Shown here in pieces: positions 465 to 21,722 of a DNA stretch of 64,000 bases. A model generated the notes under the pieces. The model was not told the origin of the DNA, did not search any database, and saw nothing but the letters and a program-made list of their open reading frames with translations. Origin of the DNA: Escherichia phage phiWec188. The translations under genes and the position numbers were made by a program. Position 1 is the first letter of the stretch, and each line of letters starts with the position of its first letter. The stretch is from sequence record LC739537.1, one strand, 5' to 3'.

Positions 465-656
465 ATGGTTACGTATTTTGCAGTGAAAAACGAAGTAGGA
501 ACGGCTGGGAAGCTGATTATGGACAGCGATCGAGACACTCGTGAGGTTATTTGTACCCTGATTGATATTTTACAAAGAAAAGAGTTGCTTTCTGATCGAG
601 ATATTGCTAATCTACTTGGCATCGGCGGTGACGAACTTCAACGACTGCCATTCTAA
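465..656 (+). CDS. small protein with helix-turn-helix-like C-terminal segment
   Basis: GGAGG RBS 6 nt upstream of ATG 465; C-terminal LSDRDIANLLGIGGDEL resembles HTH; longer 423 start lacks RBS and overlaps terminator. Confidence 0.45.
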   Translation: MVTYFAVKNEVGTAGKLIMDSDRDTREVICTLIDILQRKELLSDRDIANLLGIGGDELQRLPF

Positions 657-668
657 AGGAGACTAACA

Positions 669-1271
669 ATGCAACAACTGATCGTTAATATGCCTCGCAC
701 TGGTAATGAAGTTTTTGGTGTACCAGTAGACAAAGTTTGGAAAGCACACTTTCATCTGACCTTAGCCGAGGTAAGTAGTGAAGAGCTTATGCGAGCAGCA
801 AAGATTATCGGTGCAAAATGCACAACTATCGATCTACATCGTGACACGCAATCACAACGCGATCGTATGTTAACTAAGTATCAGGGTGGCATTGACACAG
901 GCTTGATGTTGGAATGTGTGGCAAAGTTAAAAGCTGCTGGCTTCAAAGTGTTACGCTATAAACTGGAACAAATGTTCAAGGATGTAGAACATGTAATGCA
1001 GATGAACCTAAGCAAAGAGCACTACGGAGAGGTACACATCAAGACTCCTGCTTCTATGCCGGAGATTGACACTGGCTTCTTCCGTATCTCTTCTAATGCA
1101 GAAGAGGTGGATTATCGTTTCTATAATGCCCGTCTGTATACCGAAGAAGATAAGTTGCAGTTCAAGAAAGCTTATGATATGCTTCTGACAAATGGTGTTG
1201 AAATAAAGGGCTACCATGTAGAACAAGTGGTAGTAGACAGTAATCTTAACTTAGACGCATGGTGGGCTTAA
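669..1271 (+). CDS. hypothetical protein (weak 2H-phosphoesterase-like H-x-T-x motif)
   Basis: AAGGAG RBS; single HLTL motif near N-terminus; second motif not found, so family assignment unsupported. Confidence 0.5.
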   Translation: MQQLIVNMPRTGNEVFGVPVDKVWKAHFHLTLAEVSSEELMRAAKIIGAKCTTIDLHRDTQSQRDRMLTKYQGGIDTGLMLECVAKLKAAGFKVLRYKLEQMFKDVEHVMQMNLSKEHYGEVHIKTPASMPEIDTGFFRISSNAEEVDYRFYNARLYTEEDKLQFKKAYDMLLTNGVEIKGYHVEQVVVDSNLNLDAWWA

Positions 1272-1272
1272 T

Positions 1273-1929
1273 ATGACTATTAAACATATCTCTTTTGATG
1301 TATGGAACACACTGATCACAGCAAACCCAAATTACGCGGATATGCGAGCTTGGACTATCGCAAAATACGGAGATATTTCGGAAGTAGAAGCAAGAGCAGC
1401 TTACAAGAAGATCAAAAAGGAACTGGATAATGCGGCACTTCAGGGAACAGCCGAGTGTGCAGCATATGCCTGGGAAAGACTTGGTTACGAACTTGGGATA
1501 ACACCTTTGAAGTCTGCAAAGCTTCGTTTCGAGTGTGAACAGTGGTTCCTTAAGTTTCCACCACATGTGGCTGTGGATTTACCGATGCACTTGCTGTATC
1601 TTTCGGGGCGTTATGATTTGAGCATCAAGAGTAATACCAACTTCATATCAGGGGATATCCTGCGCCGGGCTTGTAAGTTTGATGGTTGGAATTGTTTTGA
1701 GTTCACCCATTTCTCGGATGAAGCTTTACTTTGTAAACCAGATCCGCGATTCTTTGCTCGCACGCTGACGTATTCTCCCATCCCTTTGTTAGGGCACGAA
1801 GTATTGCACGTAGGCGATAGTGAAGAATATGATGGAAAATGTGTTGACTTAGGATTTAACTTCTGTCATATTAAGAACCCTAACGACTTGTTAGATAAAC
1901 TTGCTAAAGGAGAACTTGTTAATGCGTAA
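1273..1929 (+). CDS. HAD-superfamily-like hydrolase (putative)
   Basis: N-terminal FDVWNTL (degenerate HAD motif I) and C-terminal GDSEEYD (motif IV-like); translationally coupled to neighbours. Confidence 0.45.
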   Translation: MTIKHISFDVWNTLITANPNYADMRAWTIAKYGDISEVEARAAYKKIKKELDNAALQGTAECAAYAWERLGYELGITPLKSAKLRFECEQWFLKFPPHVAVDLPMHLLYLSGRYDLSIKSNTNFISGDILRRACKFDGWNCFEFTHFSDEALLCKPDPRFFARTLTYSPIPLLGHEVLHVGDSEEYDGKCVDLGFNFCHIKNPNDLLDKLAKGELVNA

Positions 1930-2749
1930 TCAAACTCAAATCTTTGCTCACAAATTTGATAGTCTGGAAACTGCTCGTTTTGATATTCGTGACTATTCCA
2001 AACTGAAGTTTGGCAGCAACCAGGCGGCACGCCGTATGGGGCAAACATTGGCAGTCTCTTTCTATGACTTGGTAGTCAAGAATATGCCGGAAGAAGAGTT
2101 TGTGGTGATTCCTTCACCTTACAACCATGTGCATAACGCAGCAACCATGATGACCAACCAGTTCATCAATTTCTTGAACCTGTTGCTGCTGAATCACAAA
2201 GGTAGTCGTGCAGTAGAGTTGGATACGATTCACCGTAAGGTAAGCTACATTAACGATTATGGTTTCCTGGACAAAGCAAGCCGTAAGAAACTGATTGATG
2301 GGGACACATTCTATTGCAACAAAGATTTTTGGGGCAACAAGAAGCTGATCTTCATTGATGATGTGAACATCACGGGGACTCATGAAGATAAACTGATTGA
2401 GATCCTGGATGAAAATAAAGTTACGAACGATGTTTACTTCCTGTACTTTGCCAAGTATACTGGTAATCAAGCAGACACAGAAGCTAAACTGAACTTCAAT
2501 TATATTAACACGACAGATGCTTTCGTTAATATGATCAACACCGAACAAGATGCACAGTGTTTGGTTCGTCCTATCAAGTATCTGATGGGGCAAGCACCGG
2601 AAGAGTTTAAAATCATTCTCTCCCGTCTGCCACACCGTTATGTAGAAGCACTGTTCTTTGGGTGTCTTGGGGAAGGTTATGACAAGATCGAGAAGTATTC
2701 TGAAAACTTCGTCTTCCTGAACCGTTACTTTAACCAACATATCCTGTAA
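1922..2749 (+). CDS. phosphoribosyltransferase (PRTase) domain protein
   Basis: PRPP-binding signature KLIFIDDVNITGTHEDKL; start moved to ATG 1922 preceded by AAGGAGAA RBS. Confidence 0.5.
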   Translation: MRNQTQIFAHKFDSLETARFDIRDYSKLKFGSNQAARRMGQTLAVSFYDLVVKNMPEEEFVVIPSPYNHVHNAATMMTNQFINFLNLLLLNHKGSRAVELDTIHRKVSYINDYGFLDKASRKKLIDGDTFYCNKDFWGNKKLIFIDDVNITGTHEDKLIEILDENKVTNDVYFLYFAKYTGNQADTEAKLNFNYINTTDAFVNMINTEQDAQCLVRPIKYLMGQAPEEFKIILSRLPHRYVEALFFGCLGEGYDKIEKYSENFVFLNRYFNQHIL

Positions 2750-2758
2750 GGAGGGAAA

Positions 2759-3232
2759 ATGTTGAAGGTTGTTACTGGTAATCTGATCGATGCAGCTAAG
2801 AGCGGGGAAGTGAACGTTATAGCCCACTGTTGTAACTGCATGTGTAATATGGGTAAAGGGATTGCTCCACAGATTAAAAAAGCATTTCCTTATGCATATG
2901 CAGCCGACTTGGACACAGCAGCAGGTGATCAAAGTAAACTGGGTTCTTTTAGTTTAGGGGTGCCAGAGAATTCCTCTGATCCTTTGGTGTATAACCTGTA
3001 CGGACAGTATCGTTACGGGTACAACGCTAAAGGTCGTCAGTTGGACTACGATGCTCTTTATGACGCACTGATAGCTATGGCTAATGATTTGCTCCTCCAG
3101 GCAAAAGGGCTTAAAATTGGTCTGCCTATGATCGGAGCAGGTTTTGCGGGAGGTAATTGGGCTATCATCGAAGTGATGATTGAAGAAACTTTAGTAAAAA
3201 CAGGTCACGATGTGACTATTTATAAACTTTAA
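2759..3232 (+). CDS. macro domain protein (ADP-ribose binding/processing)
   Basis: VNVIAHCCNCMCNMGKGIAPQI and IGLPMIGAGFAGG match the two conserved macro-domain glycine-rich loops; AAGGAGGG RBS. Confidence 0.65.
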   Translation: MLKVVTGNLIDAAKSGEVNVIAHCCNCMCNMGKGIAPQIKKAFPYAYAADLDTAAGDQSKLGSFSLGVPENSSDPLVYNLYGQYRYGYNAKGRQLDYDALYDALIAMANDLLLQAKGLKIGLPMIGAGFAGGNWAIIEVMIEETLVKTGHDVTIYKL

Positions 3233-3245
3233 GAGGAGAAATAAT

Positions 3246-3467
3246 ATGGGTGTTGTTGCAGGTGTTCTGGCAGTAGTTATCGTGTTTGTTCTGGCTTTCC
3301 TGATCAGTATGATTCCAGCATGGCTTCTGCTGCTGGCTTATAACTACGTTGTTGAAATGATGGGTCACACAGATATCACTGTTCCTATCACCTTCTGGAC
3401 TGTGGTGTGTGTGGCATTTATCATGGCTGTACTACGTGGGATCTTTTCCTCAAGTTCTTCAAAATAA
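3246..3467 (+). CDS. small hydrophobic membrane protein
   Basis: 73 aa, two predicted transmembrane stretches; AGAGGAGAA RBS. Confidence 0.5.
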   Translation: MGVVAGVLAVVIVFVLAFLISMIPAWLLLLAYNYVVEMMGHTDITVPITFWTVVCVAFIMAVLRGIFSSSSSK

Positions 3468-3470
3468 GTG

Positions 3471-3498
3471 TTGACAAAGTTTTAGAATAGAGTAAGAT
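3471..3498 (+). promoter_or_regulatory. sigma70-like promoter candidate (TTGACA -35, TAAGAT -10, 16-nt spacer) upstream of terC
   Basis: consensus -35 hexamer; -10 is 4/6; located in the only sizeable intergenic gap in this region. Confidence 0.4.
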
Positions 3499-3548
3499 GT
3501 ATCACATGAGGCGGGGAGTGGTTCCCCGCAAAGAGAAAGGAGAAAATA

Positions 3549-4523
3549 ATGCAACTTGGTTTCCCCATTATTGATGTAGTGGTGTTGGTAGGTATTCTTG
3601 TTCTGTCCATCGGTATTGACTTTTTCGGGCATCGTGAGAACAAGGAAATCTCTTTCAAATCTGCTGTGGCTTGGTCAATCTTCTGGATTGGTGTGTCTTT
3701 AGCCTACTATGGTTTTGTATACTTCCAGCACGGCGCAGATTTTGCAAACTTGTTCTTGAGCGGGTATGTGTTAGAGAAGTCGCTCTCGGTAGATAACTTG
3801 GTAGTGTTTGTAGCAGTGTTCTCCAGTTTCGGGATTAAGAGCACACACTTACAACACAAAATTCTACTCTGGGGTATTGCAGGTGCGATTGTCTTCCGAG
3901 GTGTGTTTGTAGCAGCAGGGACTTATCTGCTAAGTATTGGATGGTATGTTAATATTTTCTTCGGTATTGTGATTCTTTTTTGTGCGGCGAAGATGTTGTT
4001 TAAACAAGACGATGACGCAGCAGTTGATTACTCTAAACATTGGGCTACCCGCGTCGTTCGTAAACTGTTCCCAGTATCGGATCAGATGGATGGTGAGAAG
4101 TTCTTCACGATTAAGAATGGTGTTCGTGTAGCAACTCCGGCTCTGGTTTGTGTGTTCGTGATGGAAATGGTAGATGTGATCTTTGCAGTAGACTCGGTTC
4201 CGGCTGTAATTGCAGTGACACAAGAACCACTGCTTGTATTCTCTTCGATGCTCTGTGCAATCTTAGGCTTACGTGCTCTGTTCTTTGTTCTTAGTGTGGC
4301 CCTGAAGTATCTGGTTCACCTGGAGAAAGCAGTTATCGCAGTCCTGGTGTTTGTTGGTGTGAAACTGATGTATCACCCGTTTGCAGAAACGCTGCACGCA
4401 AAAGTGAGCTTCCTGCCAGCGCATATTGACCCGACGATCAGCATGTATATCGTGCTTGGTACTCTGGCCCTGGGCGTGATTGCAAGTTTCATCTTCCCTG
4501 AAAAAGAAGAAGCTACCGCTTAA
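3549..4523 (+). CDS. terC: TerC-family integral membrane protein
   Basis: multi-pass hydrophobic protein with the TerC signature EKSLSVDNLVVFVAVF; RBS AAAGGAGAA. Confidence 0.8.
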   Translation: MQLGFPIIDVVVLVGILVLSIGIDFFGHRENKEISFKSAVAWSIFWIGVSLAYYGFVYFQHGADFANLFLSGYVLEKSLSVDNLVVFVAVFSSFGIKSTHLQHKILLWGIAGAIVFRGVFVAAGTYLLSIGWYVNIFFGIVILFCAAKMLFKQDDDAAVDYSKHWATRVVRKLFPVSDQMDGEKFFTIKNGVRVATPALVCVFVMEMVDVIFAVDSVPAVIAVTQEPLLVFSSMLCAILGLRALFFVLSVALKYLVHLEKAVIAVLVFVGVKLMYHPFAETLHAKVSFLPAHIDPTISMYIVLGTLALGVIASFIFPEKEEATA

Positions 4524-4531
4524 TACCAATG

Positions 4532-4556
4532 AACCTCCTTCGGGAGGTTTCTTACT
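4532..4556 (+). terminator. intrinsic terminator (AACCTCC-TTCG-GGAGGTT + T-rich tail)
   Basis: perfect 7-bp stem with UUCG tetraloop immediately after terC stop. Confidence 0.6.
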
Positions 4557-4571
4557 AATATAGGAGGAATT

Positions 4572-4922
4572 ATGTCTGTATATTTTGATGATGTTCAGGA
4601 ATATGTTTGGTGTCTTTCTGGCACAATCCAAGAGGTAGAAGCTGCGATTCAAGAGGTTTTTCCTTATGCTTATGTAGAAGTTAAACAGACACCTCCTATG
4701 GATCTTCCACCTAATGTTGAAGCTTGTTGTGGTTCAGGTGAGGGTACAGTCACCCCAGTTCTGCGTTACGAACTACAAGCAGCAAGTGCAAATGTCGATG
4801 ATATTATTACAGAAATTAAGGTGTATGGTTTCTGGACCTCTCCTTACGCTAAATGGGATAACTCTGACACTTGGGATTTATTCTTCTGGGATAATGAGAC
4901 AGATGATGAGGTATTTCTGTAA
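4572..4922 (+). CDS. hypothetical protein
   Basis: TAGGAGG RBS; acidic, Trp-rich C-terminus; no recognised motif. Confidence 0.5.
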   Translation: MSVYFDDVQEYVWCLSGTIQEVEAAIQEVFPYAYVEVKQTPPMDLPPNVEACCGSGEGTVTPVLRYELQAASANVDDIITEIKVYGFWTSPYAKWDNSDTWDLFFWDNETDDEVFL

Positions 4923-6043: not shown

Positions 6044-6634
6044 ATGAATACCGAGAGAGATTTAAAACTCTTGTGGTGGGAAGTGATGCAGGAGATCAAG
6101 GAGGATTTCCCTGTTTACTACAACATGCTACGTGAAGCTGGATATACGGCTTGCGTTAGGAACAAAGTGAATAACTCTTTCGGTTGGTGCAACTACCGAG
6201 AAAAGATTGTTGTTGTGAATTGGCACTTGCATAAAAACTCCACAAGGGATATGATAGTGGACACAATGAAGCATGAAATTGCTCATGCTATTGATGGTTG
6301 TATGGGTAAGTTCAGTCGTCATGGACCACACTGGCAAAAACTGGCAGCAGAGTTGGGAGCCAATCCTAAAGCTACTTCCAAAGAACCGTTCAATCATGAA
6401 TACAAATATGTTCTTGTTTTGGTAGACAGATTTGCCACAAGATGTGTTAGAGGGTATAATCGTAAACCTAACCGTATGACCCCAGGGAAACAACCACATA
6501 TTTGGTTGAAGAGTGATAAAGAGGGGACAGAAGGAAAAATATGGTTGTATAAATGGGAAGATTGGGTTAAAGTAGCTAAAGAATATGGTGTTTCACCTTA
6601 CACAAGAGAAATAGAAGAGGAGAATGAAGAATGA
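6044..6634 (+). CDS. SprT-like zinc metallopeptidase domain protein
   Basis: HEIAHAI (HExxH) preceded by hydrophobic beta-strand region typical of SprT/Wss1-like fold. Confidence 0.55.
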   Translation: MNTERDLKLLWWEVMQEIKEDFPVYYNMLREAGYTACVRNKVNNSFGWCNYREKIVVVNWHLHKNSTRDMIVDTMKHEIAHAIDGCMGKFSRHGPHWQKLAAELGANPKATSKEPFNHEYKYVLVLVDRFATRCVRGYNRKPNRMTPGKQPHIWLKSDKEGTEGKIWLYKWEDWVKVAKEYGVSPYTREIEEENEE

Positions 6635-7743
6635 CAAGTCCATTTTTGAAAGCGGCAACTGGTGGTCAAAAGAAATCTGAAACGAGTGTACTGACTGCTA
6701 CTACAGACGCAAGCAAGTCCGTGTTCGCTCCGAGTGTCCTGGATGCAAGTCCGGTGTATGCTCCAGCAGCGCCAAAAGCTGTGCCTACCCTGCCAACAAT
6801 GTCTCGTAAAGAGATTGAAGAAGTAGGTGCAGAAGCAGGTTTAACTCTCCGTTCTCTGAATGCTGAAGTGCTGAAGCACCAACGTAGCAATCAAGGTGAC
6901 GAAATGAGTCAACGCCTTACAGCTTTGATTAAACAAGCCAAACAGCTTGATCCTGCCTCCATTAAGCAGAGTAAAGGTGTAGGTAAACTCATCAAGAAAC
7001 TGATGGGGATGAAAGAAGATCTCTTCGGTGAGTTCGATAACGTGAACAACCGTATCGAAGAACTCGTTAAGAATCTTCAAATGGATATCCGTAAAGAAGA
7101 AGATTCTCTGGTGTACCTGGATAAGCTGCACCAGGCGATCGGACAGTACGCCGCAAGCCTGAATCGTGATATGGAATTACTCACAGCAGCTTATGAGCAA
7201 GAACTGGCTACTTTTGAAGCCACACCAGAAGATGACGTAGAAGCCCGTCAACGCGTCCGTGACACGCTTGATCTCTTGGAGATACGTATTGCTGACTTGA
7301 AGGCATTACGCTTGCTGTGCGTGCAAATGGGACCGCGTGTATTGGGTATGCAGAAAGTATCTGCCAGCCTCATGCGTTCTGCTCGTAATATTGTGAACAA
7401 TGTGATTCCTGCTTACTCGGCAAACTTCTCAATGTATATTGAAAGTCTGCGCCAGAAGAAAGCAGCAGAAACACAGAACAACGTTCTGGACGAGTTCAAC
7501 CTGGCAATCAAACTGGGTAGCGATCTTGCCACACAGAATCAGATCGAAGCAGCAGCACTGGCTAACCGCCAAGTACTGGATATTGAAACCCTGCGTCACG
7601 ATCAGGAAAACTTGGTTAAGATGTTGGAAGAAACTAACCGCATCAATACGGAAGCCCGTGCTGCCCGTGTTGATTACATCAATGAAGTTCAATCTCTCGA
7701 AGATGGGATGGTTGACGCTGTTAAGAAGGGGCTTGGTAAATGA
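6631..7743 (+). CDS. alpha-helical protein, possible TelA-like (toxic anion resistance family)
   Basis: 370 aa, predicted helical/coiled-coil, size and context (adjacent to TerC/TerD genes) fit TelA; no diagnostic motif verified. Confidence 0.35.
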   Translation: MTSPFLKAATGGQKKSETSVLTATTDASKSVFAPSVLDASPVYAPAAPKAVPTLPTMSRKEIEEVGAEAGLTLRSLNAEVLKHQRSNQGDEMSQRLTALIKQAKQLDPASIKQSKGVGKLIKKLMGMKEDLFGEFDNVNNRIEELVKNLQMDIRKEEDSLVYLDKLHQAIGQYAASLNRDMELLTAAYEQELATFEATPEDDVEARQRVRDTLDLLEIRIADLKALRLLCVQMGPRVLGMQKVSASLMRSARNIVNNVIPAYSANFSMYIESLRQKKAAETQNNVLDEFNLAIKLGSDLATQNQIEAAALANRQVLDIETLRHDQENLVKMLEETNRINTEARAARVDYINEVQSLEDGMVDAVKKGLGK

Positions 7744-9330: not shown

Positions 9331-10131
9331 ATGTCCAATAAAATTAGCCTGAAGAAACGCCAAGACACCCTGACCATTTCACTGAAGAAAAAGAAAATCG
9401 TCAACGAAGATCAAAAGATCGTTCTGCGTGTTGCAAGCGCACTGGATATCTCCGGTAGTATGTCCAGCTTGTATCGTAACGGCACCGTCAGTGATTTCGT
9501 AGGTAAGCTGCTGCCCTTCGGTATGATCTTTGACGATAATGCACAGATCGATATGTGGGCTTTCAACAATAGCTCTCGTGAAATCACTCCGGCAACTGCT
9601 GATGTGTATGATGATTACGTTGGTAAATGCATTAATGGTCGTGTAACAGTTCAGGGTGGTACAAGCTACGCCCCTGTTATGCAAGATATCTACGATTCTT
9701 ACTTCGGTAGCACTACCAAGTATGAAACTGTAGAAACTCAAGTAACGAAAGAAATCCCTAAGAAAGGTTTCTTCAACCGTCTGTTGGGTAAAACTGAAAC
9801 TGTAGAAGCTGTTGTAGAAAAAACTGTAGCCGTTGCTGTGCCTGGTGTAGACGTTACTCCGGCAGTTGTGTTCTTCCAGACAGATGGTGAGAACGATGAT
9901 CCGAGCCGTGTACTCTCCGTACTGGAAAAGAACAAGGGTAAACCTATCTACTGGTTCATGGTGGGTGTTGGTAGTGCTCGTTTCTCTTTCCTGAAAGATT
10001 TGGCTGAAGCTTACGACAACGTAGCATTCATTGGTCTGAACGATCTTTCCTTGACAGACGAGCAGCTTTACGATAAACTCTTGTCTGAAGAGTTCGGTGA
10101 GTGGGTCGAAAAGGTTGGTGCTAAGAAATGA
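9331..10131 (+). CDS. vWA domain protein with TerD-like N-terminal leader (TerY/TerF-like)
   Basis: N-terminal ISLKK repeats as in TerD; MIDAS-type DISGSM, GGTSYAP, FFQTDGENDD, MVGVG motifs of a von Willebrand A domain. Confidence 0.65.
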   Translation: MSNKISLKKRQDTLTISLKKKKIVNEDQKIVLRVASALDISGSMSSLYRNGTVSDFVGKLLPFGMIFDDNAQIDMWAFNNSSREITPATADVYDDYVGKCINGRVTVQGGTSYAPVMQDIYDSYFGSTTKYETVETQVTKEIPKKGFFNRLLGKTETVEAVVEKTVAVAVPGVDVTPAVVFFQTDGENDDPSRVLSVLEKNKGKPIYWFMVGVGSARFSFLKDLAEAYDNVAFIGLNDLSLTDEQLYDKLLSEEFGEWVEKVGAKK

Positions 10132-10647: not shown

Positions 10648-11250
10648 ATGAGCGATAAAATTTCCCTGAAAAAAGGTTCCACTGACAAGATTTCCCTGAA
10701 GAAAGTTGCTCCGGCACTGAAAGAACTGCGTCTGGAGTTCTCCTGGAAATCAAACTCTAAACTGGATTTGGATGTAAGCGCACTTGTATGCCGACACAAC
10801 GCTTCTGGCAACCCTGAAATGCTGTCTGCACGTCATCTGGTTTGTTATGCTAACAAGTTTGATCCAGAACGTTCTGTATTCGCAGGTGATGATGTTCGTG
10901 ATGGTACTGGTCAAATGGAACAGATTGATGTAACCTTAGCTAAGATCTCCGATAAAGCCGAAGAGATTGCTTTTGTCCTGACTATTGATGATGAAACGGG
11001 CCAGAAACGTCTGGGCCATGCTACTGAAGGTATGCTGAAGATTTTTGATGCCGAGCGTAACGTTGAGATCCTGGACTTCGACTTCCTGGCTCCTGAAGTA
11101 GCTGGTAACACGATCTGCCACGTAGCTTCCTTGGTTCGTGAAGACGGTGAATGGAAACTGAAAGCTTACGGTGTTGGTAAAGCAGGTATGGATATCTGTG
11201 ATGTGGTTATGGCCTTCGGTGGTCAGAAAGAATGGTATGATTGCCCGTAA
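10648..11250 (+). CDS. terD: TerD-family protein
   Basis: ISLKKG..ISLKKVAP, DLDVSAL, GDDVRDGTG, FVLTIDD and GEWKLKAYG motifs line up with E. coli TerD. Confidence 0.85.
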   Translation: MSDKISLKKGSTDKISLKKVAPALKELRLEFSWKSNSKLDLDVSALVCRHNASGNPEMLSARHLVCYANKFDPERSVFAGDDVRDGTGQMEQIDVTLAKISDKAEEIAFVLTIDDETGQKRLGHATEGMLKIFDAERNVEILDFDFLAPEVAGNTICHVASLVREDGEWKLKAYGVGKAGMDICDVVMAFGGQKEWYDCP

Positions 11251-11347: not shown

Positions 11348-11869
11348 TTGCTGATAAAAAACTTTGTAACAGTTGCGTTACTATCCTTAACTGCTTTTAC
11401 ATTTACACCTGTCACGGCAACCGCCGAAGCTGCAAACGTAAAGACTGCTAAAGTAGTTCACAAATGTGCAAAGCAAGATACTAAAGAAAATCTCTTAGCT
11501 TGTGCAATTTACGCTGAAAGTCGTAATCAGGGTAAACGTGGAATGTATGCTGTAGGTAACGTAGTATTGAACAGGAAAGGTGATGATTACTTCCCTGACA
11601 ATATTAAAGATATTCTCTTCCAACGGGGACAATTCTCTTACAGGAAGAAGTTTAACGTTACTGAAGCAGAGCGATGGAAAGAAGCTAAAGCTATCGCAAA
11701 ACGACTTATATACCTGGATACAAACTTCCCTACACTTAGAGAAGCCCAGGACATGACAAAAGGTGCGACATTTTTTAAGAAAGTAAAAACCCGTGCACAC
11801 TGGACAAAAGATATGGTCTTAGTGTATCGTTATAAAGAACATCAGTTCTACTCACCGACAAGGAGCTAA
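11348..11869 (+). CDS. SleB-type cell-wall hydrolase with N-terminal signal peptide (endolysin candidate)
   Basis: TTG start 7 nt after AAGGAGG; LIKNFVTVALLSLTAFTFTPVTATAEA signal-like leader; AIYAESRNQ...GMYAVGNVVLNR hydrolase motifs. Confidence 0.6.
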   Translation: MLIKNFVTVALLSLTAFTFTPVTATAEAANVKTAKVVHKCAKQDTKENLLACAIYAESRNQGKRGMYAVGNVVLNRKGDDYFPDNIKDILFQRGQFSYRKKFNVTEAERWKEAKAIAKRLIYLDTNFPTLREAQDMTKGATFFKKVKTRAHWTKDMVLVYRYKEHQFYSPTRS

Positions 11870-13138: not shown

Positions 13139-13822
13139 ATGGAAAATGTTAAAATTGGGGTTGGCGTTATCACTGTAGGCGTTCGTCCACTTAAAGATTA
13201 CATGGTTGCACCTGGTGTAGACTTCAAAGTGTTCCACGATCCAGATCGTAAAGGTGTAGCCTATGCTCGCAACCAACTGATGAAACAGTTTTATGACGAA
13301 GGTTTTGATTACTGGTTTATTTTCGATGATGATTGCTATCCAGTCAAACGTGGTTGGGAAGAATACTTCGTTAAGCAAGCTGTTGAAAATGGTTGGGACT
13401 TCTTTGGTATGCCAGAATACTTCAAAGATACCGTGATCGGTTGTTCGGGAGAAGTAGTTTTCTGGGAACTGGCTATGTGTCAGTTTGCAATGTATTCTCG
13501 TGCAACTGTTGAGACAATGGGCTACTTCCGTCCGTACACACATGGATATGGTTTCGAAGATGCAGAATGGACTAACCGTCTGAAAGCTTCAGGTTTGAAT
13601 AAAGGACTTCAGGGCGTACCTTGTCCGATGCGCATTATGGCATATATTCACCCTGACGATGTTTTCGGTGACAACCCTCTGCCTTTTGCTAACCTGACAA
13701 AAGAAGAGAAAGAAGCAGCGATCGGGGTTAACTGGGAAGAATACAAACTGTCTTTGGAGGATATCAATAATGGCAAAACACACATCTCTTTTGAAGAGGC
13801 TGAAGGATATGGCGCTAAATAA
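13139..13822 (+). CDS. glycosyltransferase family 2-like protein
   Basis: GVGVITVGVRP Rossmann start and FIFDDDCYP DXD motif. Confidence 0.5.
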   Translation: MENVKIGVGVITVGVRPLKDYMVAPGVDFKVFHDPDRKGVAYARNQLMKQFYDEGFDYWFIFDDDCYPVKRGWEEYFVKQAVENGWDFFGMPEYFKDTVIGCSGEVVFWELAMCQFAMYSRATVETMGYFRPYTHGYGFEDAEWTNRLKASGLNKGLQGVPCPMRIMAYIHPDDVFGDNPLPFANLTKEEKEAAIGVNWEEYKLSLEDINNGKTHISFEEAEGYGAK

Positions 13823-14756
13823 AAAACCCACCCTACTGTGTGACAACAAATTCAACAGTGGTTGTGATTATCATCGCGTCGTTATGCCGTTTTCTAATGT
13901 AGAGATAAAACCACGTACCGATGTACTGGTCTTTAATCGCATCTTCTCGAAAGGTGCTGACGAAGTAGCAAAGCTTAAGCGTCAAGGTGTTAAGATTGTT
14001 GTAGATTTGGATGATTTCTATCAGTTGAATCCAGAGCACTACCTGGCGCATCTGTACGCGCCAAACACCCGCACCATTGTGGAAATGGTTAAACTGGCAG
14101 ATGTGGTTATCGTGACAACAGAATACTTGGCATATAAAATTCGTCACTTAAACTCTAATGTTGTTGTGATCCGAAATGCTCTACCGTTCGATGATGACCA
14201 GTTCACTCTGTCGAACGATCGTACTTCGGGTACGCCTATTATCTGGGCTGGAGGTGCAAGTCATGAACCGGATCTACGTTTGCTTTCAAATACTTTTGAT
14301 GATAGTCTGTTGTCTATCGCAGGGTATGAAGCGAGCAGCACAGTGACAGGGCAAGAGTGGGTTAAGATCCGCCGTAGTTTGCCTAATGCGCAGTATAAAC
14401 CTGCTGTAGATTCTTTGAATGATTATATGTCTGCATACGATGGTCATGCTATGGCTGTAGCTCCGTTAGTTGATAATGACTTCAACCATTGCAAGAGCAA
14501 CCTAAAAGTATTAGAAGCTGGTGCTAAAGGTATTCCAATCGTTTGTTCTAAGGTATTACCTTACTACAACCCGATCGATGCCCGTGCAGTAACCTTCGCA
14601 GATAGCAAGGCAGAGTGGCACTATGAAGTTGTAAAACTACTTCGTAATCCAAACTACCGTGAAGATCGTGGACTGTTCTTGGCTGAACATGTTCGTACTC
14701 ATTACAACTTGAAGGATGCAAACGAATTGCGTCGTCAAGTGATCGAAAGTCTGTAG
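13770..14756 (+). CDS. glycosyltransferase, GT-B-like (paralog 1)
   Basis: C-terminal NLKVLEAGAKGIPIVCS sugar-donor-binding motif; paralogous to next gene. Confidence 0.5.
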   Translation: MAKHTSLLKRLKDMALNKKPTLLCDNKFNSGCDYHRVVMPFSNVEIKPRTDVLVFNRIFSKGADEVAKLKRQGVKIVVDLDDFYQLNPEHYLAHLYAPNTRTIVEMVKLADVVIVTTEYLAYKIRHLNSNVVVIRNALPFDDDQFTLSNDRTSGTPIIWAGGASHEPDLRLLSNTFDDSLLSIAGYEASSTVTGQEWVKIRRSLPNAQYKPAVDSLNDYMSAYDGHAMAVAPLVDNDFNHCKSNLKVLEAGAKGIPIVCSKVLPYYNPIDARAVTFADSKAEWHYEVVKLLRNPNYREDRGLFLAEHVRTHYNLKDANELRRQVIESL

Positions 14757-15707
14757 GTGTCTATGGGACAAATTATTCTTGACAATCGTGCTGGAAAAGA
14801 ATATAGTGTCTGCGATTATCACCGAGTAATGCTGCCTTACACAAGGCAGTTCTCGGCGCAACCGTCACAGAACGTATATGTCTTTAACGGTGTCCCTACA
14901 AAAGGGAAACAAGGTTTCATAGCCCTTAAGAGCATGGGTTTTAAGATGGTAATGGATTTGGATGACTCCTTAAACATTCCTCAAGGACACATGCTGGAAG
15001 ACATTTTTGATGCAGGTATTCGAGAAGACTTGCAATGGTTTCTTGAACGTAGTGATCTTGTGACGACAACAACACCTGCTCTCCAGGTGGAACTGTCCCA
15101 GTACAATCCTAACGTACATATTATTCCAAATGGCTTACCGTTTGATGAGGATCAGTTCACGTTAACTCGTGATCGCTATTCCAAATCACCGATAGTATGG
15201 GCTGGAAGTGAAACACATAAACAAGATTTAGCTCTACTGCCGAATTTTGGAAGGGATTTAACAATCTGCGGATTCCGTAGAGATAGTGAAGTACTAAGTA
15301 GTCAGCAATGGACTGACATACGTGAAAAAGTGGCTCCAAGCTGCAATTATGAGGCTGTTAGACCATATGAGAGCTACATGGAATCTTATGATGGTCATCA
15401 AATAATGCTTGCGCCTTTGACCGATAACCTGTTTAATAACGCCAAAAGTAACCTTAAGATTCTGGAGGCTGGTGCCAAGGGTCTGCCTTTGGTCTGTTCT
15501 CCTCGTGAGAATTACTTCACAGAAGAGTTTAAGGATTTACTGTTCTTTGCAGAATCAAGAAGTGAATGGGAAGATATTGTTAATTACCTGATCCAAGAAC
15601 CTGATGTGGGGATCGAGAAGGGATTGGCTTTAGCTAAATATGTTCGTAAGCATTATCACATTGATGTGCTGAATGAACGCCGTAGATTATTATTTGAGGA
15701 GCTATAA
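14757..15707 (+). CDS. glycosyltransferase, GT-B-like (paralog 2)
   Basis: GTG start; shares CDYHRV and NLKILEAGAKGLPLVCS with upstream gene. Confidence 0.5.
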   Translation: MSMGQIILDNRAGKEYSVCDYHRVMLPYTRQFSAQPSQNVYVFNGVPTKGKQGFIALKSMGFKMVMDLDDSLNIPQGHMLEDIFDAGIREDLQWFLERSDLVTTTTPALQVELSQYNPNVHIIPNGLPFDEDQFTLTRDRYSKSPIVWAGSETHKQDLALLPNFGRDLTICGFRRDSEVLSSQQWTDIREKVAPSCNYEAVRPYESYMESYDGHQIMLAPLTDNLFNNAKSNLKILEAGAKGLPLVCSPRENYFTEEFKDLLFFAESRSEWEDIVNYLIQEPDVGIEKGLALAKYVRKHYHIDVLNERRRLLFEEL

Positions 15708-17862: not shown

Positions 17863-20460
17863 ATGAGTAAGTTTACATGGGATATTGAAGCAACCGCATT
17901 ACTGAACAATGACACAATTGATTACCTGGCAAGCCCTTATCGATTGAAAGACACTTTTGGTATGCATTGTATTTGTCTGGAAAACCACGAAACAGGAGAG
18001 ATCATTGCTTTTCACGATGGTCCTAAGTACATTTTCGATGGTCGTCCTTATGAAGAGTCTGACGGTAAGTACACTTATGTACTGAAGGAGTATGTGGCAC
18101 AGGAATACACACACTTCCCTCTGGCAGATTTTCCAGATTTTGTCAACCATACAGGTAAGTTCGCAGATAAGCCTGAATACCTCGTAGAAATGGCTGTAGC
18201 CCATAACGGCATCAACTATGACCACTTGGCAGTTAAGCTTTACTACGGGCTGAATTACAGCGTTAAATACAACACTTGGGGTGATTCGAAAGTTAAGATT
18301 ATTGATACCTTAATCCTTAGTAAAGTATTGAACCCTGATCGCAAGGTTGATGGTAAACCTGGACACAACTTGAACGCCCTTTCTAAAAAAGCTGGCGGGG
18401 ATGTTAAGATCGATTTCCGTAAAGAGATTCCAGAAGGAGAGCGATTCAAGACGTTCGCCGCAGATATGTTGTACTACTGTATCTACGACAACAAGGCAAC
18501 TACAGCAGTATATTATTACCTCATGGAAGAATGGGGTGATTATAAGAAGTGGCAAGAGCCGTTCGACTTGGAGCAACGTATTGCGGATATCATCACCCGT
18601 CAAGAACACCGTGGCTTTAAGTTCAACATGCAACAAGCTGAACAGAACCTGGAATTCTTGGACAAAGAAATGGAACGTCTACGTTTGTTGGTAGAGCCTA
18701 TTCTTCCACCTAAGCCAGCAACTAAAGGTTATCTGAAAGATTTTATTCCACCGAAACTTCAGATCAAGAAGAACGGTGAGCCAACAAACCATATCATCAG
18801 GTTTGCGGAGAAACATGGCGGTAGCCTTGAAGAACGTGAAGGTGATTGGTGGCTGCTTGTTTTAGATAAAGAGTTTAAGTTACCGATCTCAAGTGAAGAA
18901 CCTATTTGTGAACCTACCATTCCGTCTACACTGAATGATACGACACACATTAAAAACTGGCTTGTAGGTTTGGGTTGGGTTCCGTCTGAATATAAAGACA
19001 AAGACTTGACGCTTAAATCTGGTTCGAAGATCAAGAAAGATCCTGACGACTTAGAGAAAGGTATTCTGTCTTATGTCAAACAAACTCTGGAAAGCAACTT
19101 CTGTAATGATCGTTGCGAACACTTACAAGCTGATGCTGAAACATTGGAGCTTAGAATCCGTGAACGTCTGGCTAAAGGGAAAGGTCGTGGTCTTAAAGTG
19201 CTGACCAACCCATGCTTCACGAAGGGACAGGAGAAAGAGATTTGTCCTAATCTTGAAGCACTGGGCGAGAAGTTCCCGTATGCCACGCAGATTGTGCAGT
19301 ACCTGACGTACAAACATCGTCGAAACTCTATTTTGGGCGGTGGTGCAGATTGGGAAGACGATGAGGAAGATCAAGAATACGATAAAGGCTTCTTAGCAGC
19401 AGTTCGTGCCGATGGTCGTATATCGACTCCAGCGGCTACGTGTGACGCTGCAACGTCTCGTATGAAGCATCGCTCTGTTGCGAACGTTCCTCGCGTTACA
19501 TCGTTGTTTGGGTACGAAATGCGTAACTTGTTTGGGGTAGAAACACCACGTTACTTCCAGATCGGTTATGACTTTGACTCCTTGGAAGCAAAGATTGAGT
19601 CGCATTATTGTTGGCGCTACGAGCCGGAGCCTCATGAATACTGTAACGCCCTCTTGTTAGAGAAGCCTAACGATGTTCATACCATGATGGCAAGGCGTAT
19701 CACAGAAACTATTGGACGTAAGTTTGAACGTAGTCCAGCTAAATCTGTTAAGTACGGGATTACATATGGAGCACAGGCAGACAAGGTTGCTAAGACAATT
19801 GGTAGTGATAAGTACACAGGGCAACTGGTGTTTGATGCATTCTGGGAAGCAGCTTTCCCGTTAGCACAACTTAAAGAGAAGTTGAATGCTTTCTGGGTTA
19901 ACACTGGTAAGCAGTATGTTCTTGGTATTGATGGACGTAAAGTACCAACACGATCTGCACATGCAATCTTAAACTCACTGTTCCAAAGTGGCGGGGTTAT
20001 CTGTGCTAAACGTGCAATGGTGATTTATGACGATATGATCGAAGAGGAGGGTTTGGCTGTTGACTTCTTCGTTGATGACTGGAAGAATAAAGACTTCGTT
20101 CAGCAAATGATTGCTTACCACGATGAAGCGCAGCTTGAAGTATCTCGTAACCTGGTAGAATTTAAATGGTTCTCTAAAGAATCTTTGGGCTGGGTTAAAG
20201 TGGATGATGAGAAAGAGCAGAAGAAAATAGATGCAGAATGTCTTGCAAAAGCTAATGAATGGAAGCATAATAAAGAGAAAGAGACAGGGCAGATTTGGGC
20301 TAACGTTCACGAATCACCTAAAGGTGGTTGGTTTACCGCTTATAGTCGTGCCGGAGAGCTTGCTTCTCTTGCTGTTATCAAAGCTGGGGAATATTACAAG
20401 CTAAATGTTCAGCTTACTGCTGGATACGATGTTGGTAGTTCCTGGGCAAGCTGTCACTGA
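17863..20460 (+). CDS. family A DNA polymerase with 3'-5' exonuclease domain
   Basis: Exo I WDIEAT; pol motif A YDFDSLEAKI, motif B RSPAKSVKYGITYG, motif C YHDE. Confidence 0.85.
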   Translation: MSKFTWDIEATALLNNDTIDYLASPYRLKDTFGMHCICLENHETGEIIAFHDGPKYIFDGRPYEESDGKYTYVLKEYVAQEYTHFPLADFPDFVNHTGKFADKPEYLVEMAVAHNGINYDHLAVKLYYGLNYSVKYNTWGDSKVKIIDTLILSKVLNPDRKVDGKPGHNLNALSKKAGGDVKIDFRKEIPEGERFKTFAADMLYYCIYDNKATTAVYYYLMEEWGDYKKWQEPFDLEQRIADIITRQEHRGFKFNMQQAEQNLEFLDKEMERLRLLVEPILPPKPATKGYLKDFIPPKLQIKKNGEPTNHIIRFAEKHGGSLEEREGDWWLLVLDKEFKLPISSEEPICEPTIPSTLNDTTHIKNWLVGLGWVPSEYKDKDLTLKSGSKIKKDPDDLEKGILSYVKQTLESNFCNDRCEHLQADAETLELRIRERLAKGKGRGLKVLTNPCFTKGQEKEICPNLEALGEKFPYATQIVQYLTYKHRRNSILGGGADWEDDEEDQEYDKGFLAAVRADGRISTPAATCDAATSRMKHRSVANVPRVTSLFGYEMRNLFGVETPRYFQIGYDFDSLEAKIESHYCWRYEPEPHEYCNALLLEKPNDVHTMMARRITETIGRKFERSPAKSVKYGITYGAQADKVAKTIGSDKYTGQLVFDAFWEAAFPLAQLKEKLNAFWVNTGKQYVLGIDGRKVPTRSAHAILNSLFQSGGVICAKRAMVIYDDMIEEEGLAVDFFVDDWKNKDFVQQMIAYHDEAQLEVSRNLVEFKWFSKESLGWVKVDDEKEQKKIDAECLAKANEWKHNKEKETGQIWANVHESPKGGWFTAYSRAGELASLAVIKAGEYYKLNVQLTAGYDVGSSWASCH

Positions 20461-20466
20461 TGGTAT

Positions 20467-20484
20467 GGGGCTTCGGCCCCTTTA
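20467..20484 (+). terminator. terminator-like hairpin (GGGGC-TTCG-GCCCC + TTTA)
   Basis: directly after polymerase stop; inside the 5' extension of ORF 20460-20690. Confidence 0.5.
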
Positions 20485-20495
20485 TAGGAGGATAT

Positions 20496-20690: not shown

Positions 20691-20692
20691 TA

Positions 20693-20860: not shown

Positions 20861-20869
20861 GGAGAAGAA

Positions 20870-21677: not shown

Positions 21678-21722
21678 ATAAAGCTTGACTTTCACTAATC
21701 TTTTATGATAGGATGACAATCA

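What the first reader, a model, noticed from the sequence alone, without database searches (positions are those of the whole stretch)
1273..3232. HAD-like hydrolase, PRTase and macro domain genes in a translationally coupled row
Three consecutive, overlapping or abutting genes encode enzymes that act on phosphoribosyl or ADP-ribosyl substrates. A macro domain in a phage could reverse ADP-ribosylation (for example DarT-type DNA ADP-ribosylation or other ADP-ribosyltransferase defences) or process an ADP-ribose-derived signal; the PRTase and HAD could make or trim a ribosylated base. The upstream gene 669-1271 carries one 2H-phosphoesterase-like HLTL motif, which would fit an ADP-ribose cyclic-phosphate pathway, but the second motif is missing so this is weak.
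Basis: partly seen in the sequence, partly recalled or inferred. Interest (0 to 1): 0.6.

Follow-up and report, generated by a model that had tools for sequence, protein, structure and literature searches.

The report
Phage Ter-system enzymes plus anti-defence macrodomain
Three tightly packed phage genes are real but form two units: a hydrolase-phosphoribosyltransferase pair belonging to a phage-borne tellurite-resistance-type (Ter) system, and a stand-alone macrodomain from a family that other phages use to undo ADP-ribose-based bacterial defences.

Summary
The window is Escherichia phage phiWec190 (Phapecoctavirus). They overlap by 8 nt or lie 9 nt apart.

Comparative data split them into two units. 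HAD and PRTase_3 co-occur in the same 156 of 50,697 phage records. They are adjacent in 25 of 26 loci, often beside TelA, TerD, TerC and TerF-vWA. The window itself carries TerC, TelA, TerF-vWA and TerD within the next 8 kb. This pair is the predicted nucleoside-making arm of a Ter system, already described computationally in phages.

The macrodomain family occurs in 2,983 phage records and adjoins the PRTase only in Stephanstirmvirinae. It is homologous to T4 Tk.4/AdfM (anti-DarTG2). It is also homologous to the macro gene in the Adps-macro-Namat arrangement of NARP1-AP, whose macro protein Adpp is an ADPR-1''-phosphate phosphatase. It keeps the Asn and Gln that are essential in SCO6735.

The upstream gene 669-1271 is not a detectable 2H phosphoesterase.

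Verdict: observation confirmed, interpretation partly supported. These are new members of known kinds, and the chemistry is untested.

The parts
669..1271 (+). Gene of unknown function ('ORF200', 200 aa), 1 nt upstream of the HAD gene. It has a tandem ferredoxin-like fold. Invariant motifs are HxHxT (27-31), ExHxK (121-125) and HxE (183-185). It is not a detectable 2H phosphoesterase.
1273..1929 (+). HAD-superfamily (subfamily IA-like) hydrolase. Motif I is F-D-V-W-N-T-L: the nucleophile Asp9 is present, but Trp replaces the usual Asp+2. It is the obligate partner of the PRTase_3 gene.
   Evidence: Family alignment shows D-x-[WY]-x-T, SNTNF, KP and GDxxxD conserved. Found in the same 156 phage records as the PRTase. 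Immediately upstream of the PRTase in 25 of 26 loci.
1922..2749 (+). ComF-like type I phosphoribosyltransferase of Pfam family PRTase_3, the Ter-associated PRTase. It has the PRPP loop LIFIDDVNITGTHE and a family-specific C-terminal helical domain.
   Evidence: PF15610 at E 5.3e-41. Alignment invariants D146 D147 T151 G152 T153. AlphaFold model pLDDT 90.8. Foldseek matches HGPRT and H. pylori ComF at probability 1.0, TM 0.3-0.45, 10-16% identity.
2759..3232 (+). Stand-alone macrodomain (157 aa) of the ALC1-like class, SCO6735/BT1257 type. It is homologous to T4 Tk.4 (AdfM) and to the NARP1-AP-type macro gene of Vibrio phage Athena.
   Evidence: Pfam Macro. PHROG 335 'phosphatase' at E 1e-55. 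NCBIfam and PADLOC DarG models match over the macro part only. PDB matches: 5E3B E 2.3e-13, 2FG1, 5M31, 4J5R and 6LFU. T4 Tk.4: 36% identity, E 8e-23. Athena gp176: 44% identity.
3246..3467 (+). Small hydrophobic protein (73 aa) that follows the macro gene in Stephanstirmvirinae. Its function is unknown.
   Evidence: PHROG 16065. Conserved after the macro gene in L006-L010. No similarity to the membrane protein that follows the macro gene in a Vequintavirinae phage.
3549..4523 (+). TerC/Alx-family integral membrane protein. It is preceded by a promoter-like site (3471-3498) and a GC-rich hairpin (3511-3529).
   Evidence: PF03741 at E 1.7e-39. TIGR03718 at 320 bits against a cut-off of 246. Promoter scan. 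Hairpin fold. No riboswitch found.
6044..6634 (+). SprT-like metallopeptidase-domain protein lying between the TerC and TelA genes.
   Evidence: PF10263 at E 2.3e-9.
6631..7743 (+). TelA-family protein (toxic anion resistance), a Ter-system component.
   Evidence: PF05816 at E 1.1e-34. PHROG 5890 'tellurite resistance'.
9331..10131 (+). TerF-like vWA protein, a Ter-system component.
   Evidence: PF10138 at E 2.5e-37 on L001:20732-21532, which equals window 9331-10131.
10648..11250 (+). TerD-domain protein, a Ter-system component and the predicted ligand or Ca2+-binding sensor.
   Evidence: PF02342 at E 2.1e-29 on L001:22049-22651, which equals window 10648-11250.

Best explanation
The row contains two functional units that share one early/accessory operon of a Stephanstirmvirinae phage.

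Unit 1 is the HAD-PRTase_3 pair. It is the small-molecule arm of a phage-borne Ter system whose other parts lie within the next 8 kb on the same strand: TerC/Alx, TelA, TerF-like vWA and TerD. Inferred mechanism:
- The type I PRTase joins an unidentified base or other nucleophile to PRPP, giving a ribonucleoside 5'-phosphate.
- The HAD enzyme removes a phosphate to release a nucleoside-like metabolite.
- TerD-type proteins sense that metabolite.
- TerC and TelA then change the state of the envelope of the infected cell, for example to exclude superinfecting phages or to manage stress.

Unit 2 is the macrodomain, an independent counter-defence enzyme that hydrolyses a substituent on the 1'' carbon of ADP-ribose. 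This genome lacks the NARP1 genes, and the protein shares the SCO6735-type Asn/Gln active site. The most likely target is therefore thymidine-linked ADP-ribose placed on phage DNA by DarT2-type toxins, as for T4 AdfM. ADP-ribose-1''-phosphate is the main alternative substrate.

What is shown: the domain identities, motif conservation, gene order, and co-occurrence patterns. What is inferred: every substrate, every product and every phenotype.
For: Domain identities.

HAD-PRTase_3 as a unit:
- tblastn finds each in exactly 156 phage records with the same taxon breakdown.
- HAD lies directly upstream of the PRTase in 25 of 26 loci from diverse phages, bacterial MAGs and a rhizobial plasmid.

Ter linkage:
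- The window holds TerC, TelA, TerF-vWA and TerD.
- The same genes lie within 8 kb of the pair in L004, L013, L014, L016, L017 and L020, and TerD lies within 8 kb of the pair in the Haliea MAG L025, where the TerY-like vWA and kinase-like neighbours are my reading of the ORF translations, not profile hits.
- The Ter PRTase+HAD module and its presence in phages are published predictions (PMC7824862 section 3.4.10; PMC5512222).

Macro as a separate unit:
- 2,983 phage records carry a homologue.
- It is adjacent to the PRTase only in Stephanstirmvirinae-type loci. In L008 and L009 one or two inserted ORFs separate them.
- It is homologous to T4 Tk.4/AdfM (bioRxiv 10.1101/2025.11.20.689424).
- The best solved relative, SCO6735, removes thymidine-linked ADP-ribose from DNA and needs Asn27 and Gln85 (PMC9411070). 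Both are conserved here as N26 and Q83.
- No Adps or Namat homologue exists anywhere in the phiWec190 genome: tblastn E > 2.
Against: - No enzyme in this row has been assayed, and no product of any Ter-linked PRTase/HAD pair is known.
- The HAD enzyme lacks the Asp+2 general acid/base (Trp instead, conserved as Trp or Tyr across the family). Simple phosphatase chemistry is therefore not assured.
- The HAD-PRTase-macro order is conserved across the whole subfamily, and the genes appear to share an operon. That leaves room for functional coupling.
- The macro protein is closer in sequence to the NARP1-AP-type macro of Vibrio phage Athena (44%) than to T4 AdfM (34-36%). This favours ADPR-1''-phosphate as substrate.
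- On one rhizobial plasmid the HAD-PRTase pair sits among sugar and prenyl-pathway genes rather than Ter genes.
Confidence: 0.6

Rival explanations
1. One reading: the three enzymes, perhaps with the upstream gene 669-1271, form one pathway. It would make, trim or recycle a ribosylated base or an ADP-ribose-derived molecule, with the macro domain acting on the PRTase/HAD product or supplying its substrate.
For: - The genes are in the same operon with overlapping or abutting ends.
- The order is conserved throughout Stephanstirmvirinae.
- In NARP1-AP operons a member of the same macro family sits between a PRPP-synthetase-like gene and a PRTase gene. A macro gene next to a PRTase therefore has a functional precedent.
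- The upstream ORF200 domain is fused elsewhere to the nucleotide hydrolases NUDIX, HD_4 and Ham1. One relative lies beside an ADP-ribosylglycohydrolase gene.
Against: - The phyletic patterns differ about 20-fold: 156 against 2,983 phage records.
- None of the 12 distinct non-Stephanstirmvirinae phage loci, nor the bacterial loci, has a macro gene beside the pair. In L014 a macro gene lies 6 kb away.
- Genes are inserted between the PRTase and the macro gene in L008 and L009.
- ORF200 homologues occur without HAD or PRTase in L027 and L028.
- No kinase or pyrophosphokinase that could activate ADP-ribose is present in the row.
Confidence: 0.13
2. The macro protein is an Adpp-type ADP-ribose-1''-phosphate phosphatase rather than a DNA de-ADP-ribosylase. 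It would act against RES-domain NAD+ phosphorylase defences (aRES) or clear Appr-1''-p.
For: - It is 44% identical over its full length to Vibrio phage Athena gp176, which sits in the Adps-macro-Namat order described for NARP1-AP (bioRxiv 10.64898/2026.01.28.702374).
- PHROG 335 is labelled 'phosphatase'.
- Yeast Poa1p, the Appr-1''-p phosphatase, is among the PDB matches (6LFU, E 4.8e-4, N-terminal half only).
Against: - phiWec190 encodes no Adps or Namat, so converting ADPR-1''-P to ADPR would not rebuild NAD+ by the known route.
- The PDB matches to SCO6735, BT1257, DarG and TARG1 are stronger than the match to Poa1p.
- The T4 homologue works without NARP1, against DarTG2.
- The two activities may coexist in one enzyme, so this rival is not exclusive of the best explanation.
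Confidence: 0.22
3. The HAD-PRTase_3 pair has nothing to do with Ter signalling. It would serve nucleotide salvage or base hypermodification for phage DNA or RNA, or deplete or divert PRPP.
For: - Several phage loci place the pair beside RNA ligases, CCA-adding enzyme, NUDIX and 2H-SAK genes with no Ter gene within 8 kb (L002, L005).
- A rhizobial plasmid places it among sugar-pathway genes.
- Public records often annotate the PRTase as 'orotate phosphoribosyltransferase'.
Against: - Ter genes flank the pair in the window, in six other independent phage lineages and in a bacterial MAG.
- The Pfam family was itself defined from Ter neighbourhoods.
- No NCBIfam salvage-enzyme model matches the PRTase.
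- Similarity to HGPRT is remote: 10-16% identity, TM <= 0.45.
Confidence: 0.1

Closest known systems
Ter-system 'biosynthetic' module (PRTase + HAD phosphoesterase) of Anantharaman, Iyer and Aravind 2012, noted in phages by Iyer et al. 2021 (PMC7824862), for example Acinetobacter phage vB_AbaM_ME3
   Same: - The PRTase belongs to the same Pfam family (PRTase_3) and is paired with a HAD hydrolase.
- The pair lies in a neighbourhood with TerD, TerC, TelA and TerF-vWA.
- It is carried by a large virulent phage.
   Different: - There is only one PRTase. My recollection, not checked here, is that the classical bacterial clusters also carry ATP-grasp genes, and I saw none in this window.
- The phage is 150 kb, so it is not a jumbo phage.
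- The HAD enzyme has Trp at the Asp+2 position.
- The function is as untested here as it is in the bacterial systems.
T4 Tk.4 = AdfM, anti-DarT factor macrodomain (bioRxiv 10.1101/2025.11.20.689424)
   Same: - Both are stand-alone phage macrodomains of about 155 aa.
- They share 36% identity (E 8e-23).
- Both have the N...GxGxA, xQ and IGAGxxxGxW motifs.
- Neither comes with NARP1 partner genes.
   Different: - The gene neighbourhoods differ: between tk and vs in T4, after a PRTase here.
- T4 has YTQF where phiWec190 has YGQY.
- Anti-DarTG2 activity has not been tested for the phiWec190 protein.
Adpp, the macro-domain ADPR-1''-phosphate phosphatase of the NARP1-AP operon (Vibrio phage Gary; bioRxiv 10.64898/2026.01.28.702374)
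   Same: - The phiWec190 protein is 44% identical to Athena gp176, the macro gene in the same Adps-macro-Namat arrangement.
- Both lie next to a phosphoribosyltransferase gene.
   Different: - The neighbouring PRTase here is a type I ComF-like enzyme, not a NAMPT-like Namat.
- phiWec190 has no Adps and no Namat.
- I did not confirm that phage Gary is among the 49 near-identical Thalassavirus records.
SCO6735 of Streptomyces coelicolor (PDB 5E3B), with BT1257, in the ALC1-like macrodomain class
   Same: - It is the best solved-structure match (E 2.3e-13).
- Both have Gln in place of the TARG1/DarG catalytic Lys.
- Both have the conserved Asn and the IGxGxAGGxW loop.
   Different: - SCO6735 is a cellular protein under DNA-damage control.
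- The residue equivalent to SCO6735 Val25 is Cys24 here.
- Sequence identity is only moderate.
DarG antitoxin of DarTG
   Same: - The macro domain is homologous: NCBIfam NF048014 at E 6e-10 and PADLOC DarG at E 4e-12, both over the macro part.
   Different: - The phiWec190 protein has no C-terminal DarT-binding domain (157 aa against about 340 aa).
- It scores far below the equivalog cut-off (38.8 against 250 bits).
- The catalytic Lys is replaced by Gln.

Membership tests
Pfam PRTase_3 (PF15610), Ter-associated ComF-like phosphoribosyltransferase | Profile score above the curated cut-off over the full length | tested here: met
   141.2 bits against a cut-off of 28.7, covering profile positions 8-264 of 264.
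Pfam PRTase_3 (PF15610), Ter-associated ComF-like phosphoribosyltransferase | Type I PRTase fold with the PRPP-binding acidic pair followed by the T-G-x-T loop | tested here: met
   The sequence LIFIDDVNITGTHE is present. D146, D147, T151, G152 and T153 are invariant in 15 sequences. The model (pLDDT 90.8) matches HGPRT and ComF structures at probability 1.0.
Pfam PRTase_3 (PF15610), Ter-associated ComF-like phosphoribosyltransferase | Phosphoribosyl transfer from PRPP to a defined acceptor | not testable with these tools
   To my knowledge no acceptor is known for any member of the family. This needs an enzyme assay.
Ter (tellurite-resistance-type) system | Co-localised TerD, TerC, TelA and/or TerF-vWA genes together with the PRTase/HAD module | tested here: met
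   TerC 3549-4523, TelA 6631-7743, TerF-vWA 9331-10131 and TerD 10648-11250 are all on the + strand. The same linkage appears in six other phage lineages.
Ter (tellurite-resistance-type) system | Phenotype: tellurite, phage or colicin resistance | not testable with these tools
   No experiment is possible with these tools. I found no paper that tests a phage-borne Ter system.
HAD superfamily phosphatase | Motif I nucleophile Asp, motif II Ser/Thr, motif III Lys, and motif IV acidic residues | tested here: met
   D9 in FDVWNTL, SNTNF, KP and GDSEEYD are conserved across 23 family members. The alignment to HAD protein 2om6 gives E 1.4e-4.
HAD superfamily phosphatase | Asp at position +2 of motif I, the general acid/base of HAD phosphatases and mutases | tested here: not met
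   This position is Trp here, and Trp or Tyr in every family member aligned. The same DVWNT motif occurs in the uncharacterised protein 2om6.
HAD superfamily phosphatase | Pfam or NCBIfam profile score above the curated cut-off | tested here: inconclusive
   PF00702 scores 22.6 bits against a cut-off of 26.4. TIGR01549 scores 19.4 against 23.3. PHROG 14393 'hydrolase' scores E 8.5e-115.
Macrodomain, ALC1-like class, SCO6735/AdfM type | Macro fold profile above the cut-off and both Gly-rich ADP-ribose-binding loops | tested here: met
   PF01661 scores 24.8 bits against a cut-off of 22. The loops MGKGIA and IGAGFAGGNW align to SCO6735, BT1257, DarG and TARG1.
Macrodomain, ALC1-like class, SCO6735/AdfM type | Asn and Gln equivalent to SCO6735 Asn27 and Gln85, both essential for activity (PMC9411070) | tested here: met
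   N26 and Q83 are invariant in the alignments with T4 Tk.4, Athena gp176, a Vequintavirinae homologue and two metagenomic homologues. They align to the SCO6735 residues.
TARG1 / DarG catalytic type | Catalytic Lys (TARG1 K84, DarG K80), plus Asp125 in TARG1 | tested here: not met
   The TARG1 'TKK' and DarG 'TKK' positions align to 'GQY' here. The TARG1 Asp position aligns to Ala/Gly in IGAGFAGG.
DarG antitoxin (NCBIfam NF048014) | Full-length equivalog score and the C-terminal DarT-binding domain | tested here: not met
   It scores 38.8 bits against a cut-off of 250, and the match covers only profile positions 2-147 of 338.
NARP1-AP (Adps-Adpp-Namat) | Macro gene accompanied by Adps and Namat genes | tested here: not met
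   tblastn with Athena gp175 and gp177 against the whole phiWec190 genome gives nothing below E 2.6 (genome assembled and the window).
2H phosphoesterase (claimed weakly for gene 669-1271) | Two H-x-[TS]-x motifs | tested here: not met
   There is one canonical motif, H29-L-T31-L. The pseudo-symmetric second strand reads H123-I-K125-T, with Lys in place of Thr/Ser, and this is invariant in 18 sequences.
2H phosphoesterase (claimed weakly for gene 669-1271) | Profile or fold similarity to known 2H families | tested here: not met

The most novel reading that the evidence does not exclude
The six-gene operon (about 465-3467) would be a single nucleotide-centred cassette. In it the Ter-type PRTase/HAD pair would make a ribosylated small molecule, and the flanking ORF200 and macro proteins would process that molecule or its ADP-ribose-derived relatives. 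That would make this a new phage pathway linking Ter signalling to ADP-ribose/NAD+ conflict chemistry. Two observations are the hints: ORF200 belongs to an undescribed domain family fused elsewhere to NUDIX, HD and Ham1 hydrolases, and a member of the same macro family sits between a PRPP-synthetase-like enzyme and a PRTase in NARP1-AP.
Probability: 0.1. Interest if true: 0.7.

Novelty: new member of a known kind. Interest (0 to 1): 0.35.

Why it matters
No product has ever been identified for the Ter-linked PRTase/HAD enzymes. How Ter systems confer resistance to phages, colicins and tellurite has also remained unclear since the plasmid studies.

This locus shows that a whole subfamily of easily grown E. 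coli phages carries a compact and nearly complete Ter set: HAD, PRTase_3, TerC, TelA, TerF-vWA and TerD. The subfamily is Stephanstirmvirinae, which includes phages of the BASEL collection such as PaulScherrer and EmilieFrey. That gives a tractable system for metabolomics and genetics on the Ter small molecule.

Separately, the macro gene adds a large phage group to the AdfM/Adpp macrodomain family. It is a ready candidate for testing whether one enzyme covers both DarT2 and RES-type defences.

None of this is surprising to a specialist, because each component has been predicted or shown elsewhere.

Tried and rejected
- **CYTH/TTM reading of the same gene.** I considered this because of the alternating charged strands. 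It was rejected on the same fold searches.
- **NARP1, NARP1-AP and NARP3 membership of the row.** There is no Adps or Namat in the genome. NARP3 consists of PnuC and NadR and is unrelated.
- **A yybP-ykoY or other riboswitch ahead of the Alx-type terC.** None was found at gathering score over the whole window, nor at E <= 1 on 3380-3620.
- **The small membrane protein after the macro gene as a conserved partner across subfamilies.** It shows no similarity to the Vequintavirinae counterpart.
- **The 188-aa ORF inserted between PRTase and macro in L008/L009.** It looked MazG-like to me by eye, but Pfam gives no match, so I make no claim.
- **The original Ter paper (PMC4104200).** It is not held in the library. 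What I say about it rests on later papers that cite it (PMC7824862, PMC5512222), on the Pfam family description, and on my own recollection, which is marked as such.
- **The afdb50 fold library.** It was not available.
- **The PADLOC 'PRTase_III-A' match of the PRTase.** At E 0.0018 I judged it too weak to use.
Full report
**Origin of the window.** Window 600-4600 is 100% identical to Escherichia phage phiWec190 (LC739539.1, 150,689 bp, Phapecoctavirus, Stephanstirmvirinae), read as the reverse complement. The stretch is conserved in 134 phage records, almost all of them relatives of phAPEC8 and phi92.

**The observation.**
- The first two overlap by 8 nt (ATGCGTAA).
- The upstream gene ends 1 nt before the HAD start.
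- The macro gene starts 9 nt after the PRTase stop, behind a GGAGGG Shine-Dalgarno sequence.

Pfam gives PRTase_3 (PF15610) at E 5e-41. It gives Macro (PF01661) just above its cut-off and HAD (PF00702) just below its cut-off. PHROGs, NCBIfam and PDB sequence searches support all three assignments. Translational coupling is plausible from the spacing but has not been shown.

**The HAD-PRTase_3 pair.**

*The PRTase.* It has the type I PRPP loop (LIFIDDVNITGTHE, invariant in 15 diverse homologues). A confident model (pLDDT 90.8) matches HGPRT and H. pylori ComF only remotely (probability 1.0, TM 0.3-0.45, 10-16% identity). The model also has a family-specific C-terminal helical domain.

*The HAD protein.* It keeps the nucleophile Asp, the Ser/Thr, the Lys and the GDxxxD motifs. 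It has Trp where HAD phosphatases carry the Asp+2 general acid/base. That position is Trp or Tyr in all 23 family members aligned. The motif DVWNT is shared with the uncharacterised archaeal protein 2om6.

*The pairing.* The two genes are inseparable.
- tblastn finds each in exactly 156 of 50,697 phage records, with identical taxon breakdowns: Escherichia 104, Rhizobium 11, Klebsiella 10, Brevundimonas 7, and others.
- HAD lies directly upstream of the PRTase in 25 of 26 loci examined. These come from T4-like and jumbo-sized metagenomic phages, from Akkermansiaceae and Haliea MAGs, and from a Sinorhizobium plasmid.

**The Ter context.** In the window the row is followed on the same strand by:
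- TerC/Alx (3549-4523, E 1.7e-39);
- an SprT-like protein (6044-6634);
- TelA (6631-7743, E 1e-34);
- a TerF-like vWA protein (9331-10131, E 2.5e-37);
- TerD (10648-11250, E 2e-29).

TelA, TerF-vWA, TerD or TerC also lie within 8 kb of the pair in six of the 12 distinct phage loci outside Stephanstirmvirinae. In the Haliea MAG the pair lies 1 kb downstream of a TerD gene, with ORFs that I read as TerY-like vWA and kinase genes further upstream.

PRTase_3 is the Pfam family for the ComF-like PRTase of Ter neighbourhoods. Aravind and colleagues predicted that Ter PRTases and HAD phosphoesterases make a nucleoside-like signal. In their model TerB/TerD sense that signal and TerC, TelA and TerF act on it. 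They also reported such systems in jumbo 'and certain other related smaller tailed phages', proposing superinfection exclusion as the role (PMC7824862 section 3.4.10; PMC5512222). I found no experimental paper on these enzymes. The assignment to the Ter module is therefore well supported, and the chemistry remains an inference.

**The macrodomain.**

*Solved relatives.* The best solved relatives are SCO6735 (5E3B, E 2e-13), BT1257, the DarG macro domain, TARG1 and, more weakly, yeast Poa1p.

*Active site.* The catalytic Lys of TARG1 and DarG aligns to Gln83 here, and TARG1 Asp125 aligns to Ala/Gly. The protein therefore fails the TARG1/DarG catalytic test and has no DarT-binding domain. It does match the SCO6735 type. 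SCO6735 Gln85 and Asn27 are essential for removing thymidine-linked ADP-ribose from DNA (PMC9411070). They correspond to Q83 and N26, which are invariant in my alignments.

*Distribution.* The family is very common in phages, with 2,983 records.

*Experimental anchors.* Two members now have experimental support.
- T4 Tk.4, renamed AdfM, is needed to grow on DarTG2 hosts (bioRxiv 10.1101/2025.11.20.689424). It is 36% identical to the phiWec190 protein (E 8e-23).
- Vibrio phage Athena gp176 is 44% identical. It sits between a PRPP-synthetase-like gene and a NAMPT-like gene. That is the Adps-macro-Namat arrangement whose macro protein, Adpp from Vibrio phage Gary, converts ADPR-1''-phosphate to ADPR and defeats the aRES defence (bioRxiv 10.64898/2026.01.28.702374).

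*Which role fits here.* phiWec190 has no Adps or Namat anywhere in its genome. The NARP1-AP logic therefore does not apply directly. I favour the AdfM-like role and keep ADPR-1''-phosphatase activity as the main alternative. One enzyme may have both activities.

**One pathway or two units?** The macro gene adjoins the PRTase only in Stephanstirmvirinae-type loci (L001, L006-L010, L022).
- In L008 and L009 one or two extra ORFs lie between them.
- In the other phage lineages and in the bacteria, the HAD-PRTase pair has no macro neighbour. L014 has a macro gene 6 kb away.
- Together with the 20-fold difference in distribution, this argues that the macro gene is a lineage-specific neighbour and not part of the conserved pair.
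- Shared operon membership remains possible. A terminator-like hairpin lies at 429-447, and a TTGACA-16-TAAGAT promoter-like site at 3471-3498 precedes terC. These are consensus matches only. The NARP1-AP precedent also keeps a coupled pathway alive, at low probability.

**The upstream gene 669-1271.**
- No 2H Pfam family matches any of 18 family members.
- A profile search of the PDB finds nothing.

The family is nevertheless interesting.
- It has invariant polar strands: HxHxT at 27-31 and, in the pseudo-symmetric position, ExHxK at 121-125.
- It has 229 relatives among 1.84 billion representatives.
- Some relatives are fused to NUDIX, to a RelA/SpoT-type HD domain (HD_4), or to a Ham1 domain.
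- Every member tested matches two PADLOC models labelled 'AbiEi' at E 1e-8 to 1e-22.
- One relative lies beside an ADP-ribosylglycohydrolase gene. Other contexts are unrevealing phage accessory regions.

I take it to be a nucleotide-directed domain of unknown activity. It is not an obligate partner of the HAD-PRTase pair.

**Verdict.** The decisive Ter context was missed. The locus is a new member of known kinds. Its main value is a compact Ter system in tractable coliphages, where the long-unknown Ter small molecule could be sought, together with a testable AdfM/Adpp-family macrodomain. Interest is 0.35.

Noticed in passing
window 669-1271: An undescribed domain family (229 relatives among 1.84 billion representatives) with a tandem ferredoxin-like fold and invariant HxHxT and ExHxK strands. 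In other proteins it is fused to NUDIX, HD_4 (RelA/SpoT-type) or Ham1 domains. All members tested match two PADLOC models labelled 'AbiEi', although Pfam and NCBIfam see nothing. One relative lies next to an ADP-ribosylglycohydrolase gene.
   Followed up: partly
window 9331-10131 and 10648-11250: A TerF-like vWA gene and a TerD gene lie on the same strand. Together with TerC, TelA and the HAD-PRTase pair they complete a nearly full Ter system in a 150-kb coliphage. The public record annotates both as hypothetical (one carries the gene name ycbR).
   Followed up: partly
window 3471-3548: A promoter-like site (TTGACA-16-TAAGAT, 3471-3498) and a GC-rich hairpin (GCGGGGA...UCCCCGC, 3511-3529, -14.3 kcal/mol, z -2.7) lie just ahead of the Alx-type terC gene. 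Bacterial Alx genes are riboswitch-controlled, but no Rfam family matches here even at E <= 1.
   Followed up: partly
L008:4024-4590 and L009:9227-9793 (also L009:8844-9227): In some Stephanstirmvirinae relatives a conserved 188-aa ORF is inserted between the PRTase and macro genes, and in L009 a 127-aa ORF as well. Neither has a Pfam match. An acidic helical motif (ETGECADWL...LLGECADVI) looked like an all-alpha NTP pyrophosphohydrolase to me, but this is unverified.
   Followed up: partly
L029 (Sinorhizobium garamanticum plasmid NZ_CP120375.1, 150506-169285): Here the HAD-PRTase_3 pair sits among genes for a glycosyltransferase, a radical SAM protein, an NAD-dependent epimerase, an SMR transporter, a GMC oxidoreductase and a UbiA prenyltransferase, rather than among Ter genes. 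That set resembles a polyprenyl-phosphoribose type sugar pathway. The plasmid gene table is incomplete.
   Followed up: no
window 11348-11869 and 13139-15707: A cell-wall hydrolase (Hydrolase_2) gene and three consecutive weak glycosyltransferase-like genes follow the Ter island. Elsewhere in the genome (record 19343-22618) the phage carries a dTDP-rhamnose biosynthesis set.
   Followed up: no
window 60839-63288, - strand: A cluster of ten tRNA genes (Rfam tRNA, 50-74 bits). The public record annotates eleven tRNA genes in the same region.
   Followed up: no
window around 24000: GC skew changes sign from about +0.13 to negative values. This presumably marks the point where the direction of transcription switches between two divergent gene blocks.
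   Followed up: no
L030 (Vibrio phage Athena MT460517.1, 105552-108558): The Adps-like, macro and Namat-like genes form a three-gene block that is conserved at 80-100% DNA identity (45 of the 49 at 90% or more) in 49 Vibrio Thalassavirus records. RNA ligase genes lie about 2 kb away on either side. Several GenBank records annotate the macro gene as hypothetical.
   Followed up: partly
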